DNA of 64,000 nucleotides from an uncultured Roseiflexus sp. (GTDB lineage: Bacteria > Chloroflexota > Chloroflexia > Chloroflexales > Roseiflexaceae). The notes beneath the pieces were generated by a model. The model made no database searches and was not told the origin of the DNA. It saw only the letters and a program-made list of their open reading frames with translations. Below are positions 46,787 through 64,000 of this stretch, piece by piece (the first letter of the stretch is position 1; each line of letters opens with the position of its first letter). The stretch spans positions 4,854 to 68,853 of the forward strand of contig CALGYB010000009.1 in assembly GCA_937935075.1 (NCBI GenBank), read 5' to 3'. Made by a program: the position numbers and the translations under genes.

Positions 46787-46876
46787 CCCGTTGCGGATGT
46801 CACCGAAGAGTTGACATTAGAGACATCGGCGTCAGATCGAAGGTACGTCTTCGACTCACCCAGAGGGAGGTGGAAG

Positions 46877-51097: not shown

Positions 51098-52435
51098 ATG
51101 CCTGTAGATCGTTACAATCAGCCGTTCGCACGTCTCTCGTTGCGCGCCAATTTTTCCTGGACATTTGTCGGAAATGTGGTGTATGCCGCGTGTCAGTGGG
51201 GCATGCTCATGGCGCTGGCGAAACTTGGCTCACCGGCAATGGTTGGCATGTTTGCGCTCGGTCTGGCGATTACGGCGCCGGTGTTTATGTTCTCGAACCT
51301 GCACCTGCGCACTATTCAGGCGACGGATGCGCAGCAGCAGTATCAGTTTCGCGATTATCTCGGCGTTCGCCTGGCGACGACGACGCTGGCGTTGCTGGCG
51401 GTTGTGGTCATCACGCTGACCGTCGGGTACCCGTGGGAGACGGGCGCAGTGGTTGTTGCAATCGGATGCGCGAAGGCGTGCGAGTCGATCAGCGACATTT
51501 TCTACGGTCTGCTCCAGCGCCTCGAGCGCATGGACCGGATTGCTGTGGGGATGATGCTGAAAGGCGTTGTCTCACTGCTCGTGCTGGCAGTCGGCGTCTA
51601 TCTGAGCGGATCGGTAGTGTGGGGTGTGGTCGGAATGACCGGCGCGTGGGCGGCGGTGCTGACGTTCTACGACGCGCCGCAGGGTTTGTACGCATTGCGG
51701 CGCTCTCCGGCGCGCCATACGTCGTCGGCGCTCCCCGAACGTATGGCAATCGCCGCGCGTCTGGCGTGGATGGCGCTACCGCTCGGCATCGGGATTTTGC
51801 TGGTGTCGCTCAGCACAGCAATTCCGCGCTACTTCGTCGAGCGGGTGCTGGGTGCGGCGAGTCTGGGCATCTTCGCCGCCATCGCCTACATTCAGGTAGC
51901 CGGCACGACGGTCATCAGCGCGCTCGCTGCGGCTGCCAATCCACGTCTGGCGCAGCACTACGCTCGTGGCGATGCACGTGCGTTTCGCGCCCTGCTGCAC
52001 AAACTCGTGGCCATTGCGCTGACGCTGGGCGGCGCCGGCGCGCTGGTCGCATGGCTGATTGGCGGCTGGATTCTGACCCTGATCTATGGACCAGAGTACG
52101 GCGCGCACAACCATATCTTCGTGCTGGTCATGATTGCAGCCGGTATCGGCTACGTCGGCTGGTTCGTCGGCGATGCGATGACGGCGGTACGGTGTTTGCG
52201 TGCACAGGCGCTGCTCTTTCTGACAATGACAATCGCAACAATCGGCGCCTGCGCCTGGCTGATCCCGCCGTTCGGTCTGACCGGCGCGGCGCTGGCGACT
52301 ATGGTCACATCGGTGATCCATGCTGCTGGCGGCTGGCTCATCGTTGAGCACACATTGCGCGCGCTGCCGTCAACGAGAGCAACGGCGGACGCGGACGAAG
52401 CGACGTTGACAAGGCGTGTTTCCTTCAACCGATGA
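51098..52435 (+). CDS. wzx: Oligosaccharide flippase (Wzx/MOP family)
   Basis: NFSWTFVGNVVYAACQW...LAKLG...VGMF; 12+ TM helices; YGPEY. Confidence 0.88.
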   Translation: MPVDRYNQPFARLSLRANFSWTFVGNVVYAACQWGMLMALAKLGSPAMVGMFALGLAITAPVFMFSNLHLRTIQATDAQQQYQFRDYLGVRLATTTLALLAVVVITLTVGYPWETGAVVVAIGCAKACESISDIFYGLLQRLERMDRIAVGMMLKGVVSLLVLAVGVYLSGSVVWGVVGMTGAWAAVLTFYDAPQGLYALRRSPARHTSSALPERMAIAARLAWMALPLGIGILLVSLSTAIPRYFVERVLGAASLGIFAAIAYIQVAGTTVISALAAAANPRLAQHYARGDARAFRALLHKLVAIALTLGGAGALVAWLIGGWILTLIYGPEYGAHNHIFVLVMIAAGIGYVGWFVGDAMTAVRCLRAQALLFLTMTIATIGACAWLIPPFGLTGAALATMVTSVIHAAGGWLIVEHTLRALPSTRATADADEATLTRRVSFNR

Positions 52436-52436
52436 G

Positions 52437-53963
52437 ATGGTGAGCATGACCATGACCGTGATGAGATCCAACCTGAGAGTGCAACATCGCGCAGGGGCGA
52501 TGTCGGGGCGCGACATCGAGAGCCTGGTCTTGTCCGTGTACGCCTGCGCGTTGACGCTGACCGTCTTCGTGGCGCTGTCGGATCAATTCTGGCACTGGTT
52601 CGTCGTGCCGGTTGCGATGTCGGGCATCCTTATCGGCATCGATGCCGTGGATTGGATGCGGGGGCGGGTTGACCTGTTCGATCCAATCGGTCTTTCCGGC
52701 GCATTCGGCTGGTTTTTCTTCTTCTTTGCGCCGTTGCTGACTGTCGCCACCGGCTACTGGCTGATCTACGTCGAACCTCCCGCCGAACGACGCGACTGGC
52801 TGGGCTGGATGGCGCTCCTGAATCTGCTGGGATTGATCGTCTATCGCGGCGTGCGCCTGATCTACTTCCAGCGGGAACGGCGGATTGCGACGTTCTGGAA
52901 TATTGATCGCAAACGATTTTATGTCCTGGGCGCTGCGGCGCTCGTCGTGACCGCTTTCCTGCAAATCTACGTCTATAGCAGCCTGGGAGGCATTCAGGGG
53001 TTCATCGTAGCAGCCACTGATCAGCGCGCCATCCGCCAGAATCTTCAGGGTTTCGGGCAAGTGTTCATGATCTCAGAGAGTTTTCCGATTATTGCGCTGA
53101 TGATGTTTGTCGTGTATGCAAGCAACCAGAAGTCGCCGTCATATCGTTCATGGCTGGTCCTTGGAATTGTACTGCTGATCTACTTTGCACTGAAGATTTT
53201 CTTTGGAGGGTTACGTGGAAGTCGCAATAACACAATCTGGGGGTTATTTTGGGCAATGGGACTTATTCACTTCTGGATTCGACCAATAACGCGCAAAGTC
53301 GTGCTCATCGGATGGATCTTTCTGATTGCATTTATGTATGTCTATGGGTTTTATAAGAATGCCGGTCTTGACGTGATGCGTCTGATCGAAGATCCGACCG
53401 CACGTGTCGAACTGGAGCGCGAAACTCGTCGTGATCTTCCCACGTTGCTGCTCGGCGATCTAGGGCGCAGCGATGTGCAGGCATTCCTGCTCTATCAACT
53501 GGCGCGCCCCGATAGCGACTATGAGTATGCCCTTGGGCGCACCTATGTTTCCGCATTTGCGGTACTCATCCCGCGATCATTGATCGAACGCATGCCAAGT
53601 AAGACGCTGGAAGGCACCGAGGCACTGTATGGCAAAGGTTCGTACATTCCGATCGATTTTGAGGCGTCACAACTCTATGGTATTGCCGGTGAAGCGATGC
53701 TCAACTTCGGCTTTCTTGCCGCACCGGTGTCGTTCATCATCTTTGGGCTGGCGAACTGTTCGGTGCGACGCTGGCTCTCAGGGTTGGCGCCGGGTGATGC
53801 GCGGTTGCTCTTCTTTCCGTTTCTGTCACTCTTCTGCTTCTATATGCTCGCCTGCGACCTGGAAAATATTGTGTTCGACGTCATCAAGAACGTGGCGACG
53901 CCGCTTGCCATAACCGTGCTGTCGTTGTCGTCAGTTTCGCGCCTGCCCGCTTCCGGGCAATAG
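52437..53963 (+). CDS. Probable Wzy-type polysaccharide polymerase
   Basis: About 11 TM helices, GSR motif, large late loop and GEAMLNFG motif; sits between wzx and the glycosyltransferases. Confidence 0.7.
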   Translation: MVSMTMTVMRSNLRVQHRAGAMSGRDIESLVLSVYACALTLTVFVALSDQFWHWFVVPVAMSGILIGIDAVDWMRGRVDLFDPIGLSGAFGWFFFFFAPLLTVATGYWLIYVEPPAERRDWLGWMALLNLLGLIVYRGVRLIYFQRERRIATFWNIDRKRFYVLGAAALVVTAFLQIYVYSSLGGIQGFIVAATDQRAIRQNLQGFGQVFMISESFPIIALMMFVVYASNQKSPSYRSWLVLGIVLLIYFALKIFFGGLRGSRNNTIWGLFWAMGLIHFWIRPITRKVVLIGWIFLIAFMYVYGFYKNAGLDVMRLIEDPTARVELERETRRDLPTLLLGDLGRSDVQAFLLYQLARPDSDYEYALGRTYVSAFAVLIPRSLIERMPSKTLEGTEALYGKGSYIPIDFEASQLYGIAGEAMLNFGFLAAPVSFIIFGLANCSVRRWLSGLAPGDARLLFFPFLSLFCFYMLACDLENIVFDVIKNVATPLAITVLSLSSVSRLPASGQ

Positions 53964-53982: not shown

Positions 53983-55212
53983 ATGCGCGTTATCGTGTCG
54001 CTCGAACACCACTTTGATCGCACGCCAGACGGCGTGGTATGGACGCAGACGCAGTTTCCCTATCGCTTCTGGCAGCGCTATCTGGAGGTCTTCGATCAGG
54101 TGCGTGTCGTCGCGCGGGTGCGCAACGCGCCACGGGCAGCGCCCGACTGGCAGCGCGCCGATGGTCGGCATGTCTCCTTTGCCGCAATCCCGGAGTATCT
54201 GGGCCCGCGTCAGTATCTGATGCGCTTCCGGCAGATACGCGCAGCGGCACGCAGTGCGATAGGCGCGGATGATGCGGTCATTCTGCGCGTCAGTTCGCAG
54301 ATCGCCAGCCTGCTCTATCCCTTGCTGCGGCGTGACGGTCGTCCGTATGGCGTCGAGGTGGTCAGCGACCCCTACGATGTATTTGCGCCTGGTTCGGTTC
54401 GGCACCCGTTGCGCCCGTTCTTCCGCTGGCTCTTTCCACGCCGGCTACGGCAGCACTGCGCCGGTGCGGTCGCCGCGTGCTATGTCACCGAACAGGCGTT
54501 ACAGCGACGATACCCATGCCCGTCATTTTCGGTGGCGGCGTCGGATGTGGAACTGCCCGATGAGGCAATCGTTCCGGCGCCGCGTTCGTTGCGCGCTTCT
54601 GGCGCCGCCTGTCGCCTGATCTTCGTTGGGACGCTGGGGCAGTTGTACAAGGCGCCGGATGTGTTGATCGACGCCGTTGCGCTGTGCGTGCGCGACGGCG
54701 TTGATCTGACGCTTACTCTGCTCGGCGATGGCAAACATCGTGTGGAGCTGGAAGCGCGCGCCCACGCGCTGGGCATTGCAGACCGGGTGACCTTTCGCGG
54801 ACAGGTGACGGCCGGCGCGGCGGTGCGCGCCGAACTCGACGCGGCGGACCTGTTCGTCCTGCCGTCGCGTCAGGAAGGCATGCCACGCGCCATGATCGAG
54901 GCGATGGCGCGCGCGCTTCCATGCATTGGCTCGACGGTCGGCGGCATCCCCGAACTGTTGCCGCCGGAAGACCTTGCGCCCCCCGGCGATGTCGCTGCAC
55001 TGGCACAGGTCATCCGCGAGATGGTCGCCAGCCCGGAGCGGATGGCGCACGCCTCGGCGCGCAACCTCGAACGCGCACGGGCATTCGCCGAGTCGCGGTT
55101 GCGCGCGCAACGACTGGCGTTCTTCCAGCGTGTGCGTGAGCAGACCGAAGCCTGGATCGCTCATCGCCGCGCATCGACCGGATGGCAGGCGCGGCGTCGC
55201 GCGCTGCCGTAA
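53983..55212 (+). CDS. GT4 glycosyltransferase
   Basis: DLFVLPSRQEGMPRAMIEAMA, VGGIPEL. Confidence 0.93.
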   Translation: MRVIVSLEHHFDRTPDGVVWTQTQFPYRFWQRYLEVFDQVRVVARVRNAPRAAPDWQRADGRHVSFAAIPEYLGPRQYLMRFRQIRAAARSAIGADDAVILRVSSQIASLLYPLLRRDGRPYGVEVVSDPYDVFAPGSVRHPLRPFFRWLFPRRLRQHCAGAVAACYVTEQALQRRYPCPSFSVAASDVELPDEAIVPAPRSLRASGAACRLIFVGTLGQLYKAPDVLIDAVALCVRDGVDLTLTLLGDGKHRVELEARAHALGIADRVTFRGQVTAGAAVRAELDAADLFVLPSRQEGMPRAMIEAMARALPCIGSTVGGIPELLPPEDLAPPGDVAALAQVIREMVASPERMAHASARNLERARAFAESRLRAQRLAFFQRVREQTEAWIAHRRASTGWQARRRALP

Positions 55213-55246: not shown

Positions 55247-56410
55247 ATGCCACGTCTCTTGATAGTGACAACTGTTCCGGCAACGCTCTCAGCATTTCTG
55301 CTGCCATTTGCGCGACACTACCGCGCCTGCGGCTGGCGGGTCGATGCCATGACGCGCAATGAAACGATCGACGCTGAGACGCGCACAGCGTTCGATCACA
55401 TCTGGACGCTTCCCTGGTCGCGCCAGCCATTCAGCCCGGTGAACCTGATCGGAACGCCGCGCCGCATCCGACGCATCGTCGAGGGTGAGCAGTACGACAT
55501 CGTCCACGTGCATACCGCAGTCGCAGCGTTTGTCACGCGCTATGCGCTGCGCACCGTCCGTCGGCGCACCGGCGTTCGGGTGATCTACACGGCACACGGC
55601 TTCAACTTCGACCGGGGGATGCCATGGCACAAGAATCTTGCCTTCCTGGCGCTGGAAAAATGCGCAAGCGCCTGGATGGACTACCAGGTGGTGATCAACC
55701 GCACCGATGAACAGGCGGCTCTTCGCTACCGTCTCGCACCGCCGGAGCGCGTCTGGTATATGCCCGGCATTGGCGTTGATCTCACCCGCTACTGTCCCGA
55801 TGGCGTCGCCGAGACGGATGTGGCGGCGCTGCGCCAGCGCCTGGGTATCGCGCCCAACGAGGCGCTGTTCCTGATGATTGCCGAGTTCATCCCGCGCAAG
55901 CGTCACACCGATGCGTTGCGTGCATTTGCGCAGCTGGGGCGGCAAGACGCCCATCTGGCGCTGGCGGGAGACGGACCGCTGCTGGACCCGATGCGGCGCC
56001 TGGCGAACGACCTGGGGATTGCCGAACGAACCCATTTCCTCGGCTACCGACGGGATATTCCGGCGTTGTTGCGGGCGGCGACGGCGCTCGTGCTGCCATC
56101 GCAGCAGGAGGGATTGCCTCGCAGCATTCTGGAGGCGCTGGCGCTTGGCGTGCCGGTGATCGGTTCTGACATTCGCGGCGTGCGCGATCTGCTGGCGGAT
56201 GGCGCCGGTCTGCTTGTGCCGGTTGGCGACGTTGCACGGCTGGCGCGCGCGATGAGACGACTTATCGATGAAAAAGCAGCAGCGCGCGCAATGGCGCAAC
56301 GTGGATTGGAGCAGGTGAAGCGGTACGACTTGCAGCGCATCATTGCGCTGCACGACCAGTTATATGCGGCGGCGTTGAGCGAGCGACATGCCCTGACGCC
56401 AACAGTCTAG
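55247..56410 (+). CDS. GT4 glycosyltransferase
   Basis: DIVHVHT, YTAHGF, RKRH, LPSQQEGLPRSILEALA, DIRGVRDL. Confidence 0.93.
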   Translation: MPRLLIVTTVPATLSAFLLPFARHYRACGWRVDAMTRNETIDAETRTAFDHIWTLPWSRQPFSPVNLIGTPRRIRRIVEGEQYDIVHVHTAVAAFVTRYALRTVRRRTGVRVIYTAHGFNFDRGMPWHKNLAFLALEKCASAWMDYQVVINRTDEQAALRYRLAPPERVWYMPGIGVDLTRYCPDGVAETDVAALRQRLGIAPNEALFLMIAEFIPRKRHTDALRAFAQLGRQDAHLALAGDGPLLDPMRRLANDLGIAERTHFLGYRRDIPALLRAATALVLPSQQEGLPRSILEALALGVPVIGSDIRGVRDLLADGAGLLVPVGDVARLARAMRRLIDEKAAARAMAQRGLEQVKRYDLQRIIALHDQLYAAALSERHALTPTV

Positions 56411-56423
56411 AGGAGGACCGCTG

Positions 56424-57077
56424 ATGTATCGCAGATACGGCAAACGCGCATTGGACCTGATTCTCGTGGTTCCGGCATTGATCCTGCTCGCGCCGGCAAT
56501 GGCAATCCTTGCCCTGCTGATCCGGCTCAGGATGGGATCGCCGGTGTTGTTTGTCCAGGAGCGGGCCGGAAAGGACGGGAAGCCATTCAGGCTCTATAAG
56601 TTTCGCAGCATGACCAATGCGCGCGATGCGCAGGGCAACCTGCTGCCCGACGAGCAACGCCTGACGCCGTTCGGCAAATTCCTGCGCAGCGCCAGTTTGG
56701 ATGAACTGCCGCAGTTGTTCAACGTCCTGCGCGGCGAGATGAGCCTGGTCGGACCGCGACCGCTGCTGATGAGATATATCGACCGGTATACGCCAGAGCA
56801 GCGCCGACGTCTCGATGCGCTGCCTGGCGTCACATGCCAGGCAGTGCTTCACGGGCGCAGTAATCAGACGTGGGACGAAATCCTGGCGCACGATGTCTGG
56901 TATGTCGATCATATCAGCCTCTGGACCGATCTGCGCATCCTGGTTGGCACGGTGCGGGTGGTGCTGACCCGCGAGGGGGTCGAGCGCAGCGCAAATGGGC
57001 AGGTTCCCGAATTTCTTGGTGTGCTGGCTCAAACGCAGGGCGCCGCTCCTGAAGCGCGCCGCGTCGGGCAATCATAG
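56424..57077 (+). CDS. Priming phosphoglycosyltransferase (monotopic, PglC/EpsL-like)
   Basis: KRALDL, F.QER.G..GKPF..YKFRSM, DELPQLFNVL.GEMSLVGPRP. Confidence 0.95.
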   Translation: MYRRYGKRALDLILVVPALILLAPAMAILALLIRLRMGSPVLFVQERAGKDGKPFRLYKFRSMTNARDAQGNLLPDEQRLTPFGKFLRSASLDELPQLFNVLRGEMSLVGPRPLLMRYIDRYTPEQRRRLDALPGVTCQAVLHGRSNQTWDEILAHDVWYVDHISLWTDLRILVGTVRVVLTREGVERSANGQVPEFLGVLAQTQGAAPEARRVGQS

Positions 57078-57092
57078 GGACGTGAGGTGGGT

Positions 57093-57956
57093 ATGCGTAT
57101 CACGCTCATCCGGTCTGCTCAGGAATCTGAAGCAGTGTTCGATGCAGTCGAACGTCTGTTTTGCAGCACGTTTGGTTATCGCCCGGACAGGAGTGCATGG
57201 TCGCAATTCTACTTCGCCAATCCGTATGGCGATGCCATTGTGGCATTGGGCTGGAACAGCGATCAACTGGTCGGGCATCACGCCCTCGTGCCGCATGTGC
57301 TGACGGACAGCAATGGGCAGTGCTACCGGTATTACCTGGCGATGAGTCTCATGCTCCACCCGGATCATCGCGGCTTTCCCGCCTTTTATCGGCTGGTCGC
57401 GGCGACGACCGAGGCGGCGCGGGCGGAGGGTGCGCCGTTTATTCTCGGGTTTCCGAACAAGAACTCGTATGCGCTCTTTCAACGCGCGTTCGGATGGAAG
57501 ACGTTGATCGAAACCGAGTTGTACAACTGGCGCCCGACAGCGCTGGTCGATCCACCGCACAGCATCGTTGCATTGCCGCATCTGCGCCTGACCGATGAGA
57601 TAGGACCGCCACGCGATGAGACATACCGACAGTGGCGCAGCCTGACGCGCCCCTACCACGCCGAACTGGTCAACAGGCGGCTTGCCGTCATCTACAAAAT
57701 CGAGCGCAACGACACGCTCACCGTGCTCGACATCCTGACCGATTGCCCAGAGGCGGCAGCGAACGACCTGGGGGCATTGGCAGCATATGCGGGCGTACAA
57801 CAGGTGCGTATCACCGGTGTGCACGCCCGGATGATCGGTCTCGAACCGGCGGGTATGGAGCGCCACACCGATTACCGCTTGCGCATGTGCTATGCGCCGT
57901 TGACGGATCACCCGCCGTCGATGCGTTTCAGTCTACTCTTGAGCGATGTGTTCTGA
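57093..57956 (+). CDS. GNAT family N-acyltransferase
   Basis: W..FYFANPYG, LVGH.AL, MLHPDHRG (motif A), ILGFPN..S. Confidence 0.8.
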   Translation: MRITLIRSAQESEAVFDAVERLFCSTFGYRPDRSAWSQFYFANPYGDAIVALGWNSDQLVGHHALVPHVLTDSNGQCYRYYLAMSLMLHPDHRGFPAFYRLVAATTEAARAEGAPFILGFPNKNSYALFQRAFGWKTLIETELYNWRPTALVDPPHSIVALPHLRLTDEIGPPRDETYRQWRSLTRPYHAELVNRRLAVIYKIERNDTLTVLDILTDCPEAAANDLGALAAYAGVQQVRITGVHARMIGLEPAGMERHTDYRLRMCYAPLTDHPPSMRFSLLLSDVF

Positions 57957-57978
57957 AAGGGAGAAAAGGAGTTCCGGT

Positions 57979-58644
57979 ATGAATGTTCTGGTGGTGGCGG
58001 CGCATCCTGACGACGAAGTGCTTGGATGTGGCGGGGTTACGGCGCGTCACGTCGCGCAGGGCGACTCGGTCTACGCACTGATCGCCACTCGCGGCATGCC
58101 GGACATGTTTCCGCCGGAGCGGGACGAAGCGGATCGCCAGGATTCGCGGACAGCGCATCAACTGCTTGGCGGTTCGGACATCTTCTTCCTCGACTTTCCT
58201 GCGCCACAACTGGATATGGTGCCAGGGCACAAACTGGCGGACGCGATCCGCGAGGTGATCTTCGCTGTGCGCGCCGACGTGGTCTATGCGCCGTTTGGCG
58301 GCGATCTGCACGGCGATCACAAAGCCGTCTATCTGGCAACGCTGGTCGCGGCGCGCCCGATCAATGGGTGCCCGGCGCGGCGGCTGCTCTGCTACGAAAC
58401 CCTCTCTGAGACCGATTGGGCGTCGCCAATCGAGGAGAGCGCCTTCAAGCCCACCGTTTTTGTGGACATCAGTGATGTGCTGGAGCGTAAATTGCAGGCG
58501 CTTGCCTGCTTTCGCAACGAACTCAAACAGCCGCCGCATCCCCGCTCGTTGCGTGCGGTCGAGGCGCTGGCGCGGGTGCGCGGCAGCACCGCCGGTCTGA
58601 TGGCGGCAGAGGCGTTCATGCTGGTTCGCGAGATTATCAGTTGA
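57979..58644 (+). CDS. PIG-L family N-deacetylase
   Basis: VAAHPDDEVLGCGG, HGDH, YET.S, FVDIS..LERK..AL; AAGGAG RBS before ATG 57979. Confidence 0.92.
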   Translation: MNVLVVAAHPDDEVLGCGGVTARHVAQGDSVYALIATRGMPDMFPPERDEADRQDSRTAHQLLGGSDIFFLDFPAPQLDMVPGHKLADAIREVIFAVRADVVYAPFGGDLHGDHKAVYLATLVAARPINGCPARRLLCYETLSETDWASPIEESAFKPTVFVDISDVLERKLQALACFRNELKQPPHPRSLRAVEALARVRGSTAGLMAAEAFMLVREIIS

Positions 58645-58659
58645 AGGAGGACCTCAAAC

Positions 58660-58983
58660 ATGCAGGTCACTGCACTGGACGTTCCATCTCAGATTCGCCA
58701 CTACATTACGCACAACCTTTTGTTCGGCGACGAGGGCTTGGTCTACGCTGACGACGACTCGTTCCTCGAGCGGGGTATTGTGGACTCGCTCGGCGTCATT
58801 GAACTGGTCTCGTTTATTGAAGCGCAATTCGGCATCAGTGTCGCCGATCACGAATTGACCCCCGAGAACTTCGATTCGGTGACGAAACTCTCGGAGTATG
58901 TGGCGCGCAAACTTGCGAACAACGCGCATGAAACCGTCGCAGTCCAGGCGCCGCTCTCCTCGATTGCCCTGGGAGGAACATGA
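58660..58983 (+). CDS. Acyl carrier protein
   Basis: GIVDSLGVIELVSFIE..FGI phosphopantetheine site; PENFDSV; strong AAGGAGG RBS. Confidence 0.93.
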   Translation: MQVTALDVPSQIRHYITHNLLFGDEGLVYADDDSFLERGIVDSLGVIELVSFIEAQFGISVADHELTPENFDSVTKLSEYVARKLANNAHETVAVQAPLSSIALGGT

Positions 58984-60521
58984 TGCTGGTTCACGATTTT
59001 CTGACCAACAGCGCCACGCGCCTGCCGGAAAAGGTGGCGCTCGTCTGCGACGGTAAACGGTTGACCTACCGCGACCTCGATCAGATGACGAATCGCCTGG
59101 CGCGTGCGCTGGTCGAGCATGGCATCCGACGCGGCGATCGGGTGGCGATCTTTGCGCCCAACTCGGTCGAGGCGGTCGTTGGGATTTTCGCCGCGCTCAA
59201 GGCAGGTGGCGTGTTCGTGGTCATCAACCATACGACCAAGCAGGATAAACTGATCGCCATTCTGAACAACTGCCGCGCATCGGCAATCATCGTTGACGCC
59301 CAGATCAGAGACGTCCAACTGTCGGCATTGCTGCACAACGTGCCATCACTCCGGGTTGGCGTGCTGGGCAATCAGCGCACCAGCGCTCGTCTGTCGCATC
59401 CCCGTTTTATCGACTTCGATGAGGTGCAGGCGCAGTACGATGCAACGCCTCTGCCGCGCGTCAACATCGATCTCGACCTGGCGTGCCTGATCTACACCTC
59501 GGGCAGCACCGGCGAGCCGAAGGGCGTGATGAGCGATCACAGCAACGTCGTCTTCGCCAGCGGGTCGATCATCGAGTACCTGCAAAATGTCGAAGATGAT
59601 GTCGTCATCAACATGCTGCCGCTCTCCTTCGATTACGGTCTCTACCAGTTGCTGATGACCGTCCGTTTTGGCGGCAGGCTGGCGCTCGAACGCTCGTTTG
59701 CCTATCCGGCGGCGATCCTCAAGCGCGTCGAGGAAGAGCGGGTCACCGGTTTCCCTGGCGTGCCGACGATCTACGCGGTTCTCTTGCAGATGGACCTGAG
59801 CCAGTACGATCTGGCGAGCATCCGGTACCTGACGAACACCGCAGCCGCGTTGCCGCCGAGCCATCTGCTGGAATTGCGCCGGAAGTTCCCGTGGGCGCGC
59901 ATCTACTCGATGTACGGTCTGACCGAAACCAAGCGCACCCTCTATCTGCCGCCGGAAGAACTGGAGCGACGCCCCGGCTCGGTGGGCATCGCCATTCCCG
60001 GCACCGAAGTCTGGCTGGAAGACGAACAGGGCAACCGGGTGGCGCCCGGCGAAGTCGGCGAACTGGTGGTGCGCGGGCGACACGTTATGCGCGGCTACTG
60101 GGAGGCGCCGGAAGCAACCGCACAGCGATACCGTCCCGGTCCATTGCCGGGGGAGCGCGTGTGCTACACCGGCGACCTGTTCCGCATGGACGAGGAAGGC
60201 TTCCTGTACTTCGTCGGGCGCAAGGACGACATCATCAAGAGTCGCGGCGAGAAAGTCGCCCCCAAAGAAGTCGAGAACGTCATCTATGAACTGCCGGGAG
60301 TGGCGGCAGTCGCCGTCGTCGGCGTGCCCGACCCGATACTGGGGCAGGCAATCAAGGCATTTGTGGTGACCAAAAACGCAGATCTGACCGCAAAGCAGAT
60401 TCTGGCGCATTGCCGGGCGCGATTGGAAGATTTCATGGTCCCGCAGTACGTGGAATTCCGCGACGAATTGCCGGTCAATGCATCGGGGAAAATCGCCCGC
60501 CGCGAATTGGCCGGACCGTAG
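58980..60521 (+). CDS. Adenylate-forming acyl-ACP/CoA ligase
   Basis: YTSGSTGEPKG, LPLSFDYG, MYGLTE, YTGD, GRKDDIIK, SGK; ATGA overlap with the ACP gene. Confidence 0.93.
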   Translation: MMLVHDFLTNSATRLPEKVALVCDGKRLTYRDLDQMTNRLARALVEHGIRRGDRVAIFAPNSVEAVVGIFAALKAGGVFVVINHTTKQDKLIAILNNCRASAIIVDAQIRDVQLSALLHNVPSLRVGVLGNQRTSARLSHPRFIDFDEVQAQYDATPLPRVNIDLDLACLIYTSGSTGEPKGVMSDHSNVVFASGSIIEYLQNVEDDVVINMLPLSFDYGLYQLLMTVRFGGRLALERSFAYPAAILKRVEEERVTGFPGVPTIYAVLLQMDLSQYDLASIRYLTNTAAALPPSHLLELRRKFPWARIYSMYGLTETKRTLYLPPEELERRPGSVGIAIPGTEVWLEDEQGNRVAPGEVGELVVRGRHVMRGYWEAPEATAQRYRPGPLPGERVCYTGDLFRMDEEGFLYFVGRKDDIIKSRGEKVAPKEVENVIYELPGVAAVAVVGVPDPILGQAIKAFVVTKNADLTAKQILAHCRARLEDFMVPQYVEFRDELPVNASGKIARRELAGP

Positions 60522-60543
60522 GCGCATCGGCGGGGTAAAACGA

Positions 60544-60756
60544 GGTTGGTATGGGTCGGTATGGGTTGGTATGGATCGGGGTCGGTGGGACGGGGCGGCG
60601 CGGCATGGAATGTCGCGGCGGCGCGGACGGAATGTCGCCGCAAGGCGGCGCAGAGGCGACGCGGCGTCGGGACGGGTCTGAGACCCGCCCCTACACGGAC
60701 CCGCCCCGACGCCCCGACGCCCCGACCATCGTCCATCGTCCCATCGCCCGTCGCCT
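60544..60756. repeat. Mosaic of short tandem repeats plus a GTAG REP palindrome inside the operon
   Basis: 10-mer GGT(T/C)GGTATG x3; GCGGCGCGG..GGAATGTCGC x2; GGGACGGGTCTGAGACCCGCCCCTAC at 60669-60694; CGCCCCGA x3; CCATCG x3. Confidence 0.75.
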
Positions 60757-60814
60757 GCCGCCCCGGGAACACCAACCCGACCCGGCGACATATCGTAAGA
60801 TCAGGAGTTTCGTA

Positions 60815-62815
60815 ATGTGCGGAATTGTGGGCATCGTTAATGTTCGCGGCGATCAACCGATCTCCGAAGAGACGCTCCGCCAGATGCTGGCAATGATCCG
60901 GCATCGCGGTCCAGACCAGTTCGGCATCTACCTCGACGACCGGGCCGGGCTGGGCAATGCGCGGTTGCGCATCATCGACCTGAGCGGCGGGCAGCAGCCG
61001 ATTGCCAACGAAGACGAGCGTTTCTGGATTGTCTTCAACGGCGAGATTTTCAACTACGTGGAACTGCGCTCCGATCTCGAAGCGCGTGGACACTGCTTCA
61101 CGACTCATAGCGACACCGAGGTGATCCTGCACCTGTACGAAGAGTACGGTCCGGCGTGCCTCGCGCATCTCAACGGTCAGTTTGCGATTGCCATCTGGGA
61201 CGCGCGCGAGCAGACGCTATTCCTGGCGCGCGATCGGGTGGGCATTCTCCCGCTGTTCTACTCCCTCGTCGATGGAACATTGATCTTTGCGTCGGAGATT
61301 AAAGCAATCCTGGCTGACCCGCGTGTTCGACGCGCCATCGACCCGGTGGCGCTGGAGCAGATTTTCACCTTTTGGGCAACACTCTCATCCCGGACGATTT
61401 TTCGTGACATCGTGAGCCTCCCTCCAGGTCATTACCTGGTTGCGCACCACGGGCGGATCGACGTTCAGCCGTACTGGCGCCTCGAATTCGGCGCGCCGGC
61501 GAAGGAGCGCAGCGAGGAGGAGTATGTCGAGGAATTGCGCGATCTGCTGATCGATGCCACACGGATCCGCCTGCGCGCAGATGTGCCGGTCGGCGCATAC
61601 CTGAGCGGCGGACTGGACTCCTCAACAGTCGCGGCGATTGTGCGCCGGTATACCGGCAACCAGCTCGACACCTTTTCGATTGCCTTCAGCGACCCGGAGT
61701 TCGATGAGAGTCCGTTCCAGCGCCAGATGGCGCAGTATCTCAGCACCAACCATCAGGTGGCGTATGTGACGCACGCCGATATCGGGCGCGTCTTCCCGGA
61801 GGTGATCTGGCATACGGAAATGCCGATCCTGCGCACGTCGCCTGCGCCGCTCTTCATGCTCTCGCAACTGGTGCACGACCATTCCTACCGCGTAGTGCTG
61901 ACCGGCGAAGGCGCCGATGAGTTTCTTGCAGGCTACGACATCTTCAAGGAGGCAAAAGTGCGACGGTTTTGGGCGCGTCAGCCCGACTCACGACTGCGAC
62001 CGCTGCTATTCCGCCGCCTTTACCCGTGGATCGCCGGATTTGCAAGCAGCAATACTGCCTATCTCGCAGCATTCTTCAGCGAAGGGCTGATGGACACCGC
62101 CGCACCGGATTACTCCCATCGTCCGCGCTGGCGCACCACCAGCCGCACCCGCCGGTTCTTCAGCGATGAGGTGCGCCAGGCAGCCGACACGCTGGCGCAC
62201 CCGACGGATCGCACGCCGTACTACCCGGAAGCGTTCTCTTCGTGGGAACCGCTGCATCAGGCGCAGTATCTGGAAATTACCACCTTCCTCTCGCAGTATC
62301 TCCTCTCGGCGCAAGGCGACCGGATGATCATGGCGCACGCAGTCGAAGGGCGTTTTCCGTTCCTTGACCATCGCGTGATCGAGTTCGCCAACCGCCTGCC
62401 GCCACGCCTGAAACTGCGCGGTCTTACCGAAAAGTACATCCTGCGCCAGGTCAGTCGCGCCTGGCTGCCAGACGCCATCTGGCAGCGTCCCAAGCAACCA
62501 TATCGCGCGCCCATCCATCGAAGCTTCTTCAACGACGCGCGCCTGGACTACGTTCAGCACCTTCTCTCGGTAGACTGCATCCGGGCGAACGGTCTGTTCA
62601 AACCGACAGCAGTTGCACACCTGAAGGAAAAAGCGCAATCCGGCATGCGCCTGAGCGAAATCGAAGATATGGCGCTGGCAGGCATTCTCTCGACCCAACT
62701 GCTGGTCGAGCGGTTTATCCGCGATTTTCGCATGCCGCCGCCGATCGCCGACGCAGATGATGTCAAAGTCTGCATCAGAAGCGGCATTGTTGCAGGAGGA
62801 AGCTATGGGGTTTGA
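60815..62815 (+). CDS. asnB: Asparagine synthase (glutamine-hydrolysing) family amidotransferase
   Basis: MCGI N-terminal nucleophile Cys, HRGPD, FNGEIFNY, SDTEV, LSGGLDSS, LTGEGADE, EGRFPFLD; AGGAG RBS. Probably a tailoring paralogue. Confidence 0.95.
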   Translation: MCGIVGIVNVRGDQPISEETLRQMLAMIRHRGPDQFGIYLDDRAGLGNARLRIIDLSGGQQPIANEDERFWIVFNGEIFNYVELRSDLEARGHCFTTHSDTEVILHLYEEYGPACLAHLNGQFAIAIWDAREQTLFLARDRVGILPLFYSLVDGTLIFASEIKAILADPRVRRAIDPVALEQIFTFWATLSSRTIFRDIVSLPPGHYLVAHHGRIDVQPYWRLEFGAPAKERSEEEYVEELRDLLIDATRIRLRADVPVGAYLSGGLDSSTVAAIVRRYTGNQLDTFSIAFSDPEFDESPFQRQMAQYLSTNHQVAYVTHADIGRVFPEVIWHTEMPILRTSPAPLFMLSQLVHDHSYRVVLTGEGADEFLAGYDIFKEAKVRRFWARQPDSRLRPLLFRRLYPWIAGFASSNTAYLAAFFSEGLMDTAAPDYSHRPRWRTTSRTRRFFSDEVRQAADTLAHPTDRTPYYPEAFSSWEPLHQAQYLEITTFLSQYLLSAQGDRMIMAHAVEGRFPFLDHRVIEFANRLPPRLKLRGLTEKYILRQVSRAWLPDAIWQRPKQPYRAPIHRSFFNDARLDYVQHLLSVDCIRANGLFKPTAVAHLKEKAQSGMRLSEIEDMALAGILSTQLLVERFIRDFRMPPPIADADDVKVCIRSGIVAGGSYGV

Positions 62816-63809
62816 TACGCGCGTGCTACAGATCGATGCGGCAGCCGAGACGAAGCGCATCATTGCCTGGTTGCAGTACCACGTCATCAGAACTCTGCAT
62901 CGTCAGGGAGTCGTGCTGGGAATCAGCGGCGGGATCGACTCATCGGTGGCGCTGGCGCTCTGCGTCCGCGCATTCGGGCCGCAGCGCGTGATTGCGCTGA
63001 TGATGCCCGAGCGCGACTCTGATCCGCAGACGGTGCATCTGTCGGAGATGGTTGCCCGACACTACGGCGTCGAGCCGATCCTGGAAGACATCACACCGGT
63101 GCTCGAAGGGTTTGGCTGTTACCGCCGCCGCGACGAAGCGGTGCAACGAATATTCCCGGAGTACGACGCCGAACGCGGCTACAAAATGCGCATCGTGCTG
63201 CCACAGAACCTGCTCGATGCCGATACGCTGAATGTCTTTTCGCTCGAAATCATCACGCCGGAGGGCGAGGTGAAGAGCAAACGCCTGCCGCCGCGCGAAT
63301 ACGCTCAGATCGTTGCCGCCTCGAATTTCAAGCAGCGGACACGGATGGCAATGGTGTACTACCACGCAGAACTGCGCAACTATGCCGTCGTTGGCACGCC
63401 GAACAAGAACGAACACGATCAGGGATTTTTCGTCAAGTACGGCGACGGCGGCGCCGATCTGCGCCCGATTGTGCATCTGTACAAAACGCAGATCTACCAG
63501 CTGGCGCGTTATCTCGATGTACCGGAGGTCATTCAACGTCGCCCGCCGACATCCGACACCTACAGCGCTCCAACCACGCAACAGGAATTCTTCTTCCGCC
63601 TGCCGTTCGAGACGATGGACCTGCTCTGGTATGCGCAGGAGCACAACGTACCGGTAGCGGACGTGGCAGAGGCGCTGCACCTGACGCCGGTGCAGGTGCA
63701 GCGCGCCTTCAACGATTTTGCCCGCAAACGGCACACAACCGCGTATCTGCGGGTGCCGCCGCTGGAAATGCGCGCCGAGGAGCACGCAACAGTCACTGTG
63801 AATCTGTAG
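62805..63809 (+). CDS. nadE: NH3-dependent NAD synthetase-like amide ligase
   Basis: GISGGIDSS, NFKQRTRM, GT.NKNE...GFFVKYGDG, HLYKTQIYQLA; overlaps the asnB stop. May be a specialised paralogue. Confidence 0.88.
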   Translation: MGFDTRVLQIDAAAETKRIIAWLQYHVIRTLHRQGVVLGISGGIDSSVALALCVRAFGPQRVIALMMPERDSDPQTVHLSEMVARHYGVEPILEDITPVLEGFGCYRRRDEAVQRIFPEYDAERGYKMRIVLPQNLLDADTLNVFSLEIITPEGEVKSKRLPPREYAQIVAASNFKQRTRMAMVYYHAELRNYAVVGTPNKNEHDQGFFVKYGDGGADLRPIVHLYKTQIYQLARYLDVPEVIQRRPPTSDTYSAPTTQQEFFFRLPFETMDLLWYAQEHNVPVADVAEALHLTPVQVQRAFNDFARKRHTTAYLRVPPLEMRAEEHATVTVNL

Positions 63810-63824
63810 ACTCGGGAGGATGGA

Positions 63825-64000
63825 ATGCAGGCAAGAGTATACACCGTTGACGATCAGGAAGCGTGGGAGGCTGCGGCGCCGGCGCACGTGAGCGTCTTTG
63901 GCAGCGTCGGGTACGCCCGGGTGGTTCAGAAACACACCGGCTATCCGGCGCGCTTGTTCGTCGTATCATCGGATGAGGGACGGATTGTGCACCCGTTTTT
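63825..64000 (+). CDS. N-terminus of a probable GNAT/FemAB-like protein (truncated by the window edge)
   Basis: Not in the ORF track. GGAGG RBS then MQARVYTVDDQEAWEAAAPAHVSVFGSVGYARVVQKHTGYPARLFVVSSDEGRIVHPF, open to the end. The W..............Y...........LF........HPF pattern resembles FemAB-like GNAT starts. Confidence 0.55.
   Translation, partial: MQARVYTVDDQEAWEAAAPAHVSVFGSVGYARVVQKHTGYPARLFVVSSDEGRIVHPF

What the first reader, a model, noticed from the sequence alone, without database searches (positions are those of the whole stretch)
57093..64000. ACP-dependent acyl-amide tailoring cassette inside a Wzx/Wzy polysaccharide operon
Seen: directly after the priming transferase, on the same strand and tightly spaced, come GNAT, PIG-L deacetylase, ACP, adenylating ligase, AsnB, NadE-like and a second probable GNAT/FemAB gene. 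Established: PIG-L enzymes remove N-acetyl groups from amino sugars; ligase + ACP pairs activate acids; AsnB-type amidotransferases amidate polysaccharide carboxyls; NadE makes amides. From memory (please verify), a four-gene nadE/ligase/ACP/asnB operon in Sinorhizobium meliloti loads malonate on its ACP, with no known end product. Inference: here the cassette deacetylates a repeat-unit amino sugar and re-acylates it with an ACP-borne, amidated dicarboxylate (e.g. malonamyl) via the GNATs. That would be an NRPS/PKS-like glycan decoration pathway and would give the orphan module a product.
Basis: partly seen in the sequence, partly recalled or inferred. Interest (0 to 1): 0.8.

Follow-up and report, generated by a model that had tools for sequence, protein, structure and literature searches.

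The report
Carrier-protein aspartyl-amide cassette in glycan operon
A surface-polysaccharide operon of a Roseiflexus-like bacterium carries a widespread but uncharacterised four-gene module (carrier protein, adenylating ligase, AsnB-type amidotransferase, NadE-like enzyme) that most likely builds an amidated aspartate-type acyl group for an amino sugar.

Summary
After a small PglC-like priming transferase, on one strand, come GNAT, PIG-L deacetylase, carrier protein, adenylating ligase, AsnB, a NadE-like gene and the start of a FemAB-family gene. The same genome continues with a DegT aminotransferase, DUF218 and a PglF-like 4,6-dehydratase.

- ACP-ligase-AsnB-NadE is a conserved module: all four genes lie together in 49 of 63 surveyed loci from more than ten phyla.
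- About half of the longer loci hold glycan genes. About half hold an acyltransferase-type neighbour.
- The S. meliloti pSymB operon is a homologue.

Two points of the reading change.
- The ligase pocket matches VinN, the 3-methylaspartate/aspartate enzyme: D-Y-T-K-R against D-F-S-K-R, ungapped. The carrier resembles aminoacyl carriers. An aspartate-type cargo is therefore more likely than malonate.
- GNAT and PIG-L are not partners of the quartet. Four related Chloroflexota loci keep PGT-GNAT-PIG-L...DegT. In the slot held here by quartet plus FemAB they carry ACP and KASIII plus a PglD-like enzyme, with an SDR in three of them.

I infer that the cassette supplies the N-acyl group for the 4-amino group of a bacillosamine-type sugar. 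The role of the NadE-like enzyme is unresolved. Whether the genome has a second nadE was not tested.

The parts
45320..46786 (+). Wzz / tyrosine-autokinase-like chain-length regulator; head of the glycan locus (context).
   Evidence: PF02706 and TIGR01007/TIGR03029 hits.
46811..48385 (+). HlyD-type membrane-fusion protein (context).
   Evidence: PF13437, PF16576.
48414..51068 (+). 884-aa protein with no family hit and a signal/lipoprotein-like N-terminus. It is conserved at this position in related loci.
   Evidence: No Pfam or NCBIfam hit. Proteins of 858 and 877 aa sit at the same place in L096 and L097.
51098..52435 (+). Wzx-like flippase (weak call).
   Evidence: PF01943 at 25.6 bits, below cutoff. 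At least 9 hydrophobic segments.
52416..53963 (+). Putative Wzy-type polymerase, inferred from position and topology only.
   Evidence: No family hit. At least 9 hydrophobic segments with a large loop at 300-417.
53983..55212 (+). GT4 glycosyltransferase.
   Evidence: Pfam families on the orthologue in L001/L091.
55247..56410 (+). GT4 glycosyltransferase.
   Evidence: Pfam families on the orthologue in L001/L091.
56424..57077 (+). Small PglC-like monotopic phosphoglycosyl (priming) transferase.
   Evidence: PF02397, 204 bits. 217 aa with a single N-terminal hydrophobic segment.
57093..57956 (+). GNAT acyltransferase (Acetyltransf_9). It travels with the PGT and PIG-L, not with the quartet.
   Evidence: PF13527, 28 bits. 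Homologues sit after the PGT in L093-L097 with other ACP cassettes.
57979..58644 (+). PIG-L/LmbE-family de-N-acetylase. An alternative start lies at 57946.
   Evidence: PF02585, 84 bits. AHPDDE and HGDH motifs are in the translation. Closest solved relatives are TT1542, BshB and diacetylchitobiose deacetylase.
58660..58983 (+). Stand-alone carrier protein of aminoacyl/peptidyl-carrier type, with a DSL serine.
   Evidence: PF00550. The best-described PDB relatives are PCPs, PltL, PigG, DltC and an aminoacyl carrier protein; a single FAS-type 'acyl carrier protein' (2lol) appears only near the bottom of the list.
58980..60521 (+). VinN-type adenylating ligase, predicted to load an aspartate-type acid on the carrier.
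   Evidence: PF00501/PF13193. In the pocket region VinN scores 91 bits against 46 or less for every other solved structure. Pocket residues D-Y-T-K-R match VinN D230-F231-S299-K330-R331 without gaps.
60522..60814 (.). Variable G+C-rich spacer with imperfect hairpins. A conserved AGGAG lies before the AsnB ATG.
   Evidence: Fold z-score -0.8. No Rfam hit.
60815..62815 (+). AsnB-type glutamine-dependent amidotransferase. The true start is MCGIVG; the 754-aa gene call from 60551 is an over-extension.
   Evidence: TIGR01536, 537 bits. PF13537 and PF00733. The upstream stretch is not conserved among strains.
62805..63809 (+). NadE-like PP-loop ATP-pyrophosphatase of subfamily NF002048, with an insertion of about 60-70 residues. 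Its substrate is unknown.
   Evidence: NF002048, 512 bits. About 27-33% identity to the canonical NadE sequences compared, with an unaligned stretch of about 70 residues (query 104-172) between the two matched segments. The AF2 model shows a NadE core plus an extra helix and three strands at about 105-160. AsnB is adjacent in 61 of 63 loci.
63825..64000 (+). N-terminus of a 362-aa FemAB-family transferase, cut by the window end.
   Evidence: Identical to the start of L091 16733-17821. PF02388 at 62 bits and FemX as closest solved relative, both on the L001 orthologue.

Best explanation
The quartet of carrier protein, ligase, AsnB and NadE-like enzyme is an acyl-donor cassette plugged into a bacillosamine-type sugar pathway.

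Inferred sequence of events:
1. The PglF-like dehydratase and the DegT aminotransferase, just beyond the window, convert UDP-GlcNAc into a UDP-2-acetamido-4-amino-2,4,6-trideoxyhexose.
2. The VinN-type ligase adenylates an aspartate-type amino acid. By analogy with VinN it activates the carboxyl that is beta to the amino group. It loads the acid as a thioester on the stand-alone carrier protein.
3. The AsnB-type enzyme, using glutamine and ATP, amidates the remaining free carboxylate. This would give an isoasparaginyl-like thioester.
4. The NadE-like enzyme performs a second ATP-dependent step of the same chemical type. Its target is unresolved. Candidates are amide to amidine or nitrile, a second carboxylate, or an amide ligation.
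5. The FemAB-family enzyme moves the unit from the carrier to the 4-amino group. It occupies the slot that holds a PglD-type N-acyltransferase in sister loci.
6. The small PglC-like transferase then primes the lipid carrier with this sugar. Two GT4 enzymes extend it, and Wzx/Wzy/Wzz-like proteins export and polymerise it.
7. GNAT and PIG-L are a separate, conserved pair that modifies another position, probably by N-2 deacetylation and re-acylation.

Shown:
- gene content and order;
- conservation of the module;
- the cassette swap;
- the pocket similarity.

Inferred:
- the identity of the acid;
- the order of the steps;
- the transferase;
- the acceptor.
For: 1. Module conservation. Of 63 loci with at least 4.5 kb upstream of a NadE-like gene, 61 have AsnB adjacent, 58 an ACP, 52 a VinN-type ligase, and 49 all four. 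Protein identity is 55-79% across Chloroflexota, Acidobacteriota, Verrucomicrobiota, Cyanobacteria, Calditrichota, Planctomycetota, Bacteroidota, Gemmatimonadota, Elusimicrobiota and Proteobacteria.

2. Glycan linkage. At least 25 of 53 loci of 12 kb or more hold glycan genes. 27 of 53 hold an acyltransferase-type neighbour. The commonest immediate same-strand neighbours are Acyl_transf_3 (8), an NRPS C-PCP-TE protein (6) and hexapeptide acyltransferases (5).

3. Linkage to the 4-amino-sugar pathway outside Roseiflexus. DegT and/or a PglF-like gene lie next to the quartet in L016, L019, L023, L034, L073 and L004/L011.

4. Cassette swap. L093-L096 keep PGT-GNAT-PIG-L; DegT follows in L093-L095 and a PglF-like gene in L094. 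Between them lie ACP, KASIII and a PglD-like enzyme, with an intact SDR in L093-L095. L096 is also syntenic upstream. The window's genome has no hexapeptide/PglD-type gene in the locus.

5. Ligase pocket. VinN is the closest solved structure in this region by a wide margin. D230, F231, S299, K330 and R331 and the short loop correspond to D, Y, T, K, R with no gap. The same signature is in S. meliloti SMb20650 and in about 43-54 of 56 ligases at each position (residue roles from PMC11253843).

6. The carrier resembles aminoacyl/peptidyl carriers.

7. FemAB-family genes flank the ACP-AsnB-NadE set a second time, in an Acidobacteriota MAG, L032.

8. Aspartyl N-acyl groups on 4-amino-4,6-dideoxyhexoses exist in known O-antigens (PMC10609480).
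Against: - No biochemical data exist for any member of the quartet except the S. meliloti ACP and ligase. From my memory of Ramos-Vega 2009, which is not held in the library, C12/C18 acyl forms were seen in E. coli.
- A beta-linked aspartyl thioester has only one free carboxylate. The invariant pairing of two amidating enzymes is therefore not explained.
- FemAB-family enzymes are known to use aminoacyl-tRNA, not aminoacyl-carrier proteins.
- The FemAB link is seen in only two lineages.
- About half of the quartet loci, including the rhizobial ones, show no glycan genes within 10 kb.
- Pocket similarity to VinN is 37% identity over 153 residues. It predicts a substrate class, not a compound.
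- The catalytic motifs of the NadE-like protein are canonical, so NAD synthetase activity is not excluded.
- The 293-nt spacer before asnB could hold a promoter or terminator that the simple scans miss.
Confidence: 0.5

Rival explanations
1. PIG-L removes the N-acetyl group from a repeat-unit amino sugar. A GNAT re-acylates that amine with ACP-borne malonamyl, made from malonate by the ligase plus AsnB and NadE.
For: - PIG-L and GNAT lie directly before the ACP.
- Malonyl-CoA synthetases are among the ligase's solved relatives (4fuq, 213 bits).
- N-malonyl on Qui4N exists in Proteus.
- From memory, an AsnB homologue (OxyD) makes the malonamyl starter in oxytetracycline biosynthesis.
Against: - The ligase keeps the Asp that binds a substrate amino group. 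Its pocket region matches VinN at 91 bits and malonyl-CoA synthetase at only about 34 bits.
- The GNAT-PIG-L pair is conserved next to a different ACP cassette in L093-L096.
- The pair is missing from all non-Roseiflexus quartet loci.
- The carrier is of the aminoacyl-carrier type.
Confidence: 0.12
2. The FemAB-family enzyme works in the classical way, adding an amino acid from aminoacyl-tRNA to the 4-amino sugar. The quartet's product is attached elsewhere: to that amino acid, to N-2 via the GNAT, or to a hydroxyl.
For: - All characterised FemABX enzymes use aminoacyl-tRNA. The closest solved relative is FemX, which acts on a UDP-linked amine.
- In most other loci the quartet is paired with other transferase types: AT3, hexapeptide, or C domain.
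Against: - No other candidate transferase is specific to the quartet version of the locus.
- FemAB-family genes recur beside ACP-AsnB-NadE in L032.
Confidence: 0.15
3. The quartet makes a free small molecule, or a lipid or peptide-like product, that is not part of the glycan. Its place in the operon reflects co-regulation or insertion.
For: - It stands alone in S. meliloti and Mesorhizobium plasmids.
- In cyanobacterial and some acidobacterial loci it is linked to an NRPS C-PCP-TE protein.
- About half of the loci have no labelled glycan gene.
Against: - Here it sits exactly in the slot of an N-acylation cassette between PGT-GNAT-PIG-L and DegT-PglF.
- Spacing on either side is tight.
- It is repeatedly linked to DegT/PglF in other phyla.
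Confidence: 0.1
4. AsnB and NadE are ordinary housekeeping asparagine and NAD synthetases that happen to lie in the operon.
For: - Both pass NCBIfam cutoffs for those names.
- The catalytic motifs are intact.
Against: - The two are adjacent in 61 of 63 loci across many phyla, nearly always with an ACP.
- The NadE-like protein is only about 27-33% identical to the canonical NadE sequences compared and carries an insertion of about 60-70 residues.
- The AsnB's best solved relative is a natural-product hydroxyamidotransferase (7ylz).
Confidence: 0.03

Closest known systems
VinN/VinL of vicenistatin biosynthesis (stand-alone adenylation enzyme plus carrier protein loading 3-methylaspartate/aspartate as a beta-amino acid)
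   Same: - A stand-alone ligase sits next to a stand-alone carrier.
- The pocket residues and loop length correspond.
- The free carboxylate of the loaded acid is then processed.
   Different: - In the Vin pathway a PLP decarboxylase removes that carboxylate and the unit primes a polyketide synthase.
- Here two amidating enzymes follow, and the context is a polysaccharide operon.
Sinorhizobium meliloti pSymB operon asnB-SMb20651(ACP)-SMb20650(ligase)-nadE
   Same: - The same four families are present: NadE 49%, ligase 55%, AsnB 52% and ACP 41% identical.
- The ligase pocket signature is the same.
- The product is unknown.
   Different: - It is free-standing, with a different gene order and no glycan genes nearby.
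- It forms a more distant clade than the 55-79% group.
Bacillosamine pathway PglF/PglE/PglD/PglC and its N-acyl variants (3-hydroxyacyl cassettes with ACP, KASIII, SDR and a PglD-like enzyme)
   Same: - A PglF-like dehydratase, a DegT aminotransferase and a small PglC-like PGT are present.
- Sister loci carry ACP and KASIII plus a PglD-like enzyme at the same position, with an SDR in three of four.
   Different: - There is no PglD-type hexapeptide transferase.
- The donor cassette is ligase/carrier/AsnB/NadE and the candidate transferase is FemAB-family.
DltA/DltC/DltB D-alanylation of teichoic acids
   Same: - An adenylating ligase loads an amino acid on a small carrier protein to decorate a cell-surface glycopolymer.
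- The carrier has DltC among its relatives.
- In many quartet loci a membrane acyltransferase (AT3) follows, as DltB follows DltC.
   Different: - Dlt makes an ester outside the membrane.
- Here amidating enzymes act on the cargo, and a cytoplasmic N-acylation of a nucleotide sugar is proposed.
XrtA/PEP-CTERM-associated set (TIGR03098 ligase, ACP, PLP decarboxylase, TIGR03108 amidotransferase, FemAB-family protein; names from NCBIfam and memory)
   Same: - The best NCBIfam hit of the ligase is TIGR03098 (489 bits).
- The second-best hit of the AsnB is TIGR03108 (470 bits).
- The same mix of families occurs in an EPS locus.
   Different: - Both scores are below the curated cutoffs of 592 and 817.
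- There is no decarboxylase here, and the exosortase set has no NadE-like member.
- Exosortase genes were not looked for.
Teicoplanin-type deacetylase plus N-acyltransferase, and MshB/MshD in mycothiol (from memory)
   Same: A PIG-L/LmbE deacetylase frees a hexosamine amine that is then re-acylated. This is a plausible logic for the conserved PIG-L-GNAT pair.
   Different: The acceptor and donor here are unknown, and the pair is independent of the quartet.

Membership tests
VinN-type (beta-amino-acid mode) adenylation enzymes | Asp at the GrsA-235 / VinN-230 position, which binds the substrate amino group | tested here: met
   SFDYG aligns with VinN SWDFG. The residue is D in 45 of 56 quartet-locus ligases.
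VinN-type (beta-amino-acid mode) adenylation enzymes | Lys330-Arg331 on a beta13-beta14 loop that is one residue shorter than in alpha-amino-acid A domains; bulky residue at position 231; Ser/Thr at position 299 | tested here: met
   TETKRT aligns with VinN TECKRI without a gap. Y stands for F231 and T for S299. Residue roles are taken from PMC11253843.
VinN-type (beta-amino-acid mode) adenylation enzymes | Loads 3-methylaspartate/aspartate on its partner carrier protein | not testable with these tools
   This needs ATP-PPi exchange and intact-protein mass spectrometry.
Carrier-protein loading pair (type II NRPS-like) | An adenylate-forming enzyme with the C-terminal catalytic Lys, beside a small protein with a phosphopantetheine-attachment serine | tested here: met
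   PF00501, PF13193 and PF00550. SGKI and DSL motifs are in the translations. The two genes overlap by 4 nt.
Asparagine synthetase B family (class II glutamine amidotransferase) | N-terminal nucleophile Cys, a GATase domain and a PP-loop SGGxDS synthetase domain | tested here: met
   MCGIVG start, PF13537, PF00733 and SGGLDS. TIGR01536 scores 537 bits against a cutoff of 267.
Asparagine synthetase B family (class II glutamine amidotransferase) | Makes asparagine from free aspartate | not testable with these tools
   The context argues for another substrate. The best solved relative is the hydroxyamidotransferase 7ylz.
NAD synthetase (NadE) | NAD_synthase fold with the SGGxDS PP-loop and the GxxxKYGDGGxD motif | tested here: met
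   PF02540 at 170 bits and NF002048 at 512 bits against a cutoff of 313. Foldseek target-normalised TM-score is about 0.7 to NadE structures.
NAD synthetase (NadE) | Amidates NaAD and serves NAD biosynthesis as the housekeeping copy | not tested
   Identity to the canonical NadE sequences compared is only about 27-33% and there is an insertion of about 60-70 residues. The gene is always beside AsnB. A second nadE in the genome could not be searched for. None lies in the window.
XrtA/PEP-CTERM-associated ligase and amidotransferase (TIGR03098, TIGR03108) | Score above the curated NCBIfam cutoffs | tested here: not met
   489 bits against 592, and 470 bits against 817.
Bacillosamine-type UDP-sugar pathway | PglF-like 4,6-dehydratase, PglE/DegT aminotransferase and a small monotopic PGT in one locus | tested here: met
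   L091 and L001: Polysacc_synt_2 with CoA_binding_3 (649-653 aa) and DegT. PGT PF02397, 217 aa.
Bacillosamine-type UDP-sugar pathway | PglD-type hexapeptide N-acetyltransferase for the 4-amino group | tested here: not met
   No hexapeptide gene is in the locus. It is present in sister loci L093-L096.
FemABX transferases | FemAB / Acetyltransf_6 double-GNAT architecture | tested here: met
   PF02388 at 62 bits and PF13480 at 41 bits on the L001 orthologue. FemX is the closest solved relative.
FemABX transferases | Aminoacyl-tRNA as donor | not testable with these tools
   The donor proposed here is the loaded carrier protein. This is inference only.
PIG-L/LmbE de-N-acetylases | PIG-L domain with the metal-binding AHPDD and HxxH motifs | tested here: met
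   PF02585 at 84 bits. Both motifs are in the translation.

The most novel reading that the evidence does not exclude
The quartet is a very widespread orphan pathway, present in at least several hundred species-level genomes across more than ten phyla. It would build a carrier-tethered aspartate-derived unit whose free carboxyl is processed twice: by AsnB to the amide, then by the NadE-like enzyme to an amidine or nitrile. Interchangeable transferases would then hand the unit to glycans and other acceptors. These would include FemAB-family enzymes that take an aminoacyl-carrier protein instead of aminoacyl-tRNA. This would give the S. meliloti SMb20650-53 operon a chemistry. It would add a new donor type for FemAB enzymes and a non-NAD function for a NadE subfamily.
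Probability: 0.15. Interest if true: 0.85.

Novelty: new variant of a known kind. Interest (0 to 1): 0.62.

Why it matters
Carrier-protein-dependent N-acylation of amino sugars is a known kind of glycan tailoring. This donor cassette, however, has no assigned product, although it is strongly conserved and common in environmental phyla. It is annotated everywhere as 'NAD synthase', 'asparagine synthase' and 'long-chain acyl-CoA ligase'.

The comparative evidence here turns it into a testable hypothesis:
- a defined substrate class for the ligase, including the S. meliloti enzyme studied since 2009;
- a defined acceptor pathway;
- a defined slot in the operon.

It also flags a NadE subfamily whose annotation may be wrong, and a possible new donor for FemAB-family enzymes.

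Tried and rejected
- **Exact-sequence look-up of the ligase.** It found nothing. The window's own contig was reached later through the GNAT.
- **Public runs guessed to be RNA.** They gave flat, low contig depth over the whole locus, which says nothing about operon structure.
- **Promoter and terminator scans.** They found fewer sites than the shuffled controls, and no + strand terminator-like site downstream of 57155, which lies inside the GNAT gene.
- **Rfam.** It found nothing in 44-64 kb.
- **The ligase-asnB spacer.** It folds no better than shuffles (z-score -0.8).
- **AlphaFold model of the NadE-like protein** (pLDDT 78). It confirmed the NadE fold plus an inserted subdomain but does not tell the substrate.
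- **An attempted inference about accessory status.** I considered arguing that the gene is accessory because cultured Roseiflexus genomes were missing from the scan list. I rejected this.
- **Literature.** Searches for the four-gene combination, for exosortase-linked ligase/ACP/decarboxylase sets and for 'NadE-like' enzymes returned nothing relevant. Ramos-Vega 2009 is not held.
- **A single-protein scan with the GNAT.** It found only Roseiflexus. The sensitive protein search was needed.

Full report
**What is in the window**

The region 45.3-64.0 kb is one + strand gene train. In order it holds:
- a Wzz/tyrosine-kinase-like gene;
- a HlyD-like gene;
- an 884-aa protein with no family hit;
- a weak Wzx-like gene and a putative Wzy-like membrane protein;
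- two GT4 glycosyltransferases;
- a 217-aa PglC-like phosphoglycosyl transferase;
- the genes of the finding.

The genes of the finding are:
- GNAT (PF13527);
- PIG-L (PF02585);
- a 107-aa carrier protein;
- a 513-aa adenylate-forming ligase;
- AsnB (TIGR01536, 537 bits; true start MCGIVG at 60815);
- a NadE-like protein (NF002048, 512 bits);
- 58 codons of a further ORF.

Spacing is 15-22 nt or overlapping, except for a 293-nt spacer before asnB.

The organism is a Roseiflexus relative. The NadE-like protein is 92-95% identical to proteins of Roseiflexus MAGs.

A contig of the same genome (L091; 1 mismatch in 7000 nt) continues the operon. The cut ORF there is a 362-aa FemAB-family protein. 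It is followed by a DegT aminotransferase (best NCBIfam hits PseC/LegC-type), a membrane DUF218 protein and a 649-aa PglF-like 4,6-dehydratase. The operon also encodes the front end of a bacillosamine-type pathway for a 2-acetamido-4-amino-2,4,6-trideoxyhexose.

**The quartet is a conserved module**

A scan of species-representative genomes with an alignment of the NadE-like protein matched at least 585 stretches, and 80 loci were kept.

Among 63 loci with enough upstream DNA:
- AsnB lies beside the NadE-like gene in 61;
- a carrier protein is present in 58;
- a ligase at least 45% identical to the window's is present in 52;
- all four are present in 49, mostly in the order ACP-ligase-AsnB-NadE.

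Identities to the window proteins are high across phyla: NadE 55-79%, ligase about 50-75%, AsnB about 46-71%.

Its order is AsnB by tblastn, then ACP, ligase and NadE, with NadE 49% identical. It stands alone there. A Mesorhizobium plasmid has the same four genes in another order.

The held literature says three things:
- SMb20650 is co-transcribed with the ACP SMb20651.
- It gives an acylated ACP in E. coli.
- It cannot replace FadD (PMC7232532).

The ACP's function was still called unclear in 2017 and 2022. The original paper is not held, so the malonate statement stays unverified. My own recollection is that malonylation was done in vitro with E. coli FabD.

**Neighbourhood survey**

I clustered crude ORF calls from the 80 loci and scanned representatives against Pfam. 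All counts are lower bounds.
- At least 25 of 53 loci of 12 kb or more hold glycan genes: GT4, GT2, Wzy, PGT, tyrosine kinase, PMT-like, sulfotransferase, epimerase.
- 21 of these loci hold two or more kinds of glycan gene.
- 27 of 53 hold an acyltransferase-type gene.
- Among the immediate same-strand neighbours of the quartet, the commonest families are Acyl_transf_3 (8), an NRPS-like C-PCP-TE protein (6) and hexapeptide acyltransferases (5).
- DegT and/or PglF-like genes lie beside the quartet in six non-Roseiflexus loci from several phyla.

The picture is a fixed donor cassette combined with varying transferases, often inside polysaccharide loci.

**What the ligase loads**

Over its full length the ligase is closest to NRPS adenylation domains and to VinN.

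In the 158-residue stretch that forms the substrate pocket, VinN (3WV4/3WVN) scores 91 bits. The next solved structure scores 46 bits, and malonyl-CoA synthetase about 34 bits. Identity to VinN there is 37%.

VinN binds 3-methylaspartate, and also L-aspartate, as a beta-amino acid. The features are, according to PMC11253843:
- D230 holds the amino group.
- K330 and R331 sit on a shortened beta13-beta14 loop.
- F231 and S299 lie opposite that loop.

The window ligase has D, Y, T, K, R at these positions, and the alignment through the loop is ungapped. The same five residues are in S. meliloti SMb20650 and the Mesorhizobium enzyme. Across 56 ligases from the surveyed loci the counts are D 45, Y/F 55, T/S 43, K 43 and R 54.

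The carrier's best-described solved relatives are peptidyl, prolyl, D-alanyl and aminoacyl carrier proteins. One FAS-type ACP appears only near the bottom of the list.

I therefore predict an aspartate-type amino acid, loaded through the carboxyl beta to the amine. I do not predict malonate or a fatty acid. This is an inference about a substrate class.

A minority of loci carry a second ligase type without the Asp: C/I, F/Y, A, A, R. It keeps the Arg, so a distal carboxylate may be the common feature.

**Which genes belong to the cassette**

Homologues of the 289-aa GNAT are few and confined to Chloroflexota-like contigs. In four of them (L093-L096) the order PGT-GNAT-PIG-L is kept.
- Between this trio and DegT (present in L093-L095; a PglF-like gene follows in L094) lie an ACP, one or two KASIII enzymes and a PglD-like hexapeptide transferase.
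- An intact SDR ketoreductase is present in L093-L095. L096 holds only a 60-aa fragment.
- This is a set of the kind expected to make and transfer a 3-hydroxyacyl group.
- L096 is also syntenic upstream: a large unknown protein, Wzx, Wzy, GT4, GT4, PGT.

The window's locus has no hexapeptide gene. None of the 70-odd non-Roseiflexus quartet loci has this GNAT or PIG-L.

Two cassettes therefore alternate in one slot of one scaffold:
- ACP, KASIII and a PglD-like enzyme, usually with an SDR;
- carrier, ligase, AsnB, NadE-like and FemAB-like.

This is the strongest evidence that the quartet supplies an N-acyl group for the 4-amino sugar, and that the FemAB-family protein is its transferase here.

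FemAB-family genes also flank ACP-AsnB-NadE in an Acidobacteriota MAG (L032). The closest solved relative of the FemAB-like protein is FemX, which acylates an amine on a UDP-linked substrate, though from aminoacyl-tRNA.

GNAT and PIG-L form a separate pair. Their likely role is deacetylation and re-acylation at another position. That role is not resolved.

**The two amidating enzymes**

The AsnB has the N-terminal Cys and the PP-loop. Its best solved relative is a natural-product hydroxyamidotransferase (7ylz).

The NadE-like protein keeps SGGIDS and GFFVKYGDGGAD. It is only about 27-33% identical to the canonical NadE sequences compared. It carries an insertion that the model (pLDDT 78) builds as a helix plus three strands.

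AsnB and the NadE-like gene are the tightest pair of the module (61 of 63 loci). A beta-linked aspartyl thioester offers only one free carboxylate. Amidation of it, giving an isoasparaginyl-like unit, accounts for one enzyme.

The second step is open. My candidates are:
- conversion of the amide to an amidine, as PP-loop enzymes are thought to do for acetamidino sugars (from memory);
- conversion to a nitrile, as QueC does (from memory);
- a second carboxylate;
- an amide ligation.

True NAD synthetase activity is not excluded.

**Comparison and novelty**

Carrier-dependent decoration of surface glycopolymers is known. Examples are Dlt, the 3-hydroxyacyl/PglD-type cassettes seen in the sister loci and, from memory, the ACP-dependent tetronate genes of Vibrio cholerae O1. 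Aspartyl N-acyl groups on 4-amino-4,6-dideoxyhexoses are known chemically.

What is new:
- the donor cassette, whose four genes are annotated generically and have no known product;
- the predicted aspartate-type cargo, which extends to the S. meliloti enzymes;
- the possible use of a FemAB-family enzyme with a carrier-bound donor.

I rate it a new variant of a known kind.

**Limits**
- There is no biochemistry.
- The second-nadE test was not possible with these tools.
- Transcription evidence is limited to spacing. The RNA-labelled runs and the motif scans were uninformative.
- The survey counts rest on crude ORF calls and are lower bounds.

Noticed in passing
window 60522-60814: The spacer between the ligase and asnB is 293 nt here, but about 50-190 nt and largely unalignable in three other Roseiflexus strains. 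It is G+C-rich, with 10-nt tandem units (GGTNGGTATG) and imperfect inverted repeats. Only AGGAG before the ATG is conserved. Gene callers read through it and give a 754-aa AsnB.
   Followed up: partly
window 48414-51068: An 884-aa protein with a signal/lipoprotein-like N-terminus has no Pfam or NCBIfam hit. It is conserved directly before the Wzx-like gene in related Chloroflexota loci (858 aa in L096, 877 aa in L097). It may be a dedicated component of this polysaccharide system.
   Followed up: no
L034, L039, L047, L057, L069 (ligase genes, coordinates): Some quartet loci carry a second ligase type that lacks the amino-group-binding Asp (pocket C/I-F/Y-A-A-R) but keeps the Arg. In L047 both ligase types sit side by side around the ACP. 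The AsnB-NadE pair may therefore process more than one kind of carrier-bound acid.
   Followed up: partly
L045, L048, L049, L052, L058 (cyanobacteria); L024, L026, L036 (Acidobacteriota); L050 (Bifidobacteriaceae MAG): In these loci the quartet, or in L036 only its ACP and NadE-like genes, is joined to an NRPS-like Condensation-PCP-Thioesterase protein without an adenylation domain. In several cyanobacterial loci a conserved 299-aa protein with no family hit is also present. The product there may be peptide-like rather than a glycan decoration.
   Followed up: no
L091 19124-19804 (just beyond the window end): A membrane-anchored DUF218 (ElyC/SanA-like) protein lies between DegT and the PglF-like gene in the Roseiflexus version of the locus. 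In the sister locus L094 no gene lies between DegT and PglF.
   Followed up: no
L012 about 11.0-13.6 kb; L023 about 11.1-13.5 kb: A PqqD-like gene (scanned against Pfam only in L023; assigned in L012 by clustering) and a second, distant AsnB homologue (28-29% identity) lie right after the quartet. This is the pattern of a lasso-peptide cluster and is probably an unrelated neighbour.
   Followed up: no
L072 and L076 (downstream of the NadE-like gene); L013, L017, L033, L061, L067, L082: Anaerolineae-type quartet loci also hold sulfotransferases, and in two cases a fused ATP-sulfurylase/APS-kinase. The glycans there are probably sulfated as well as acylated.
   Followed up: no
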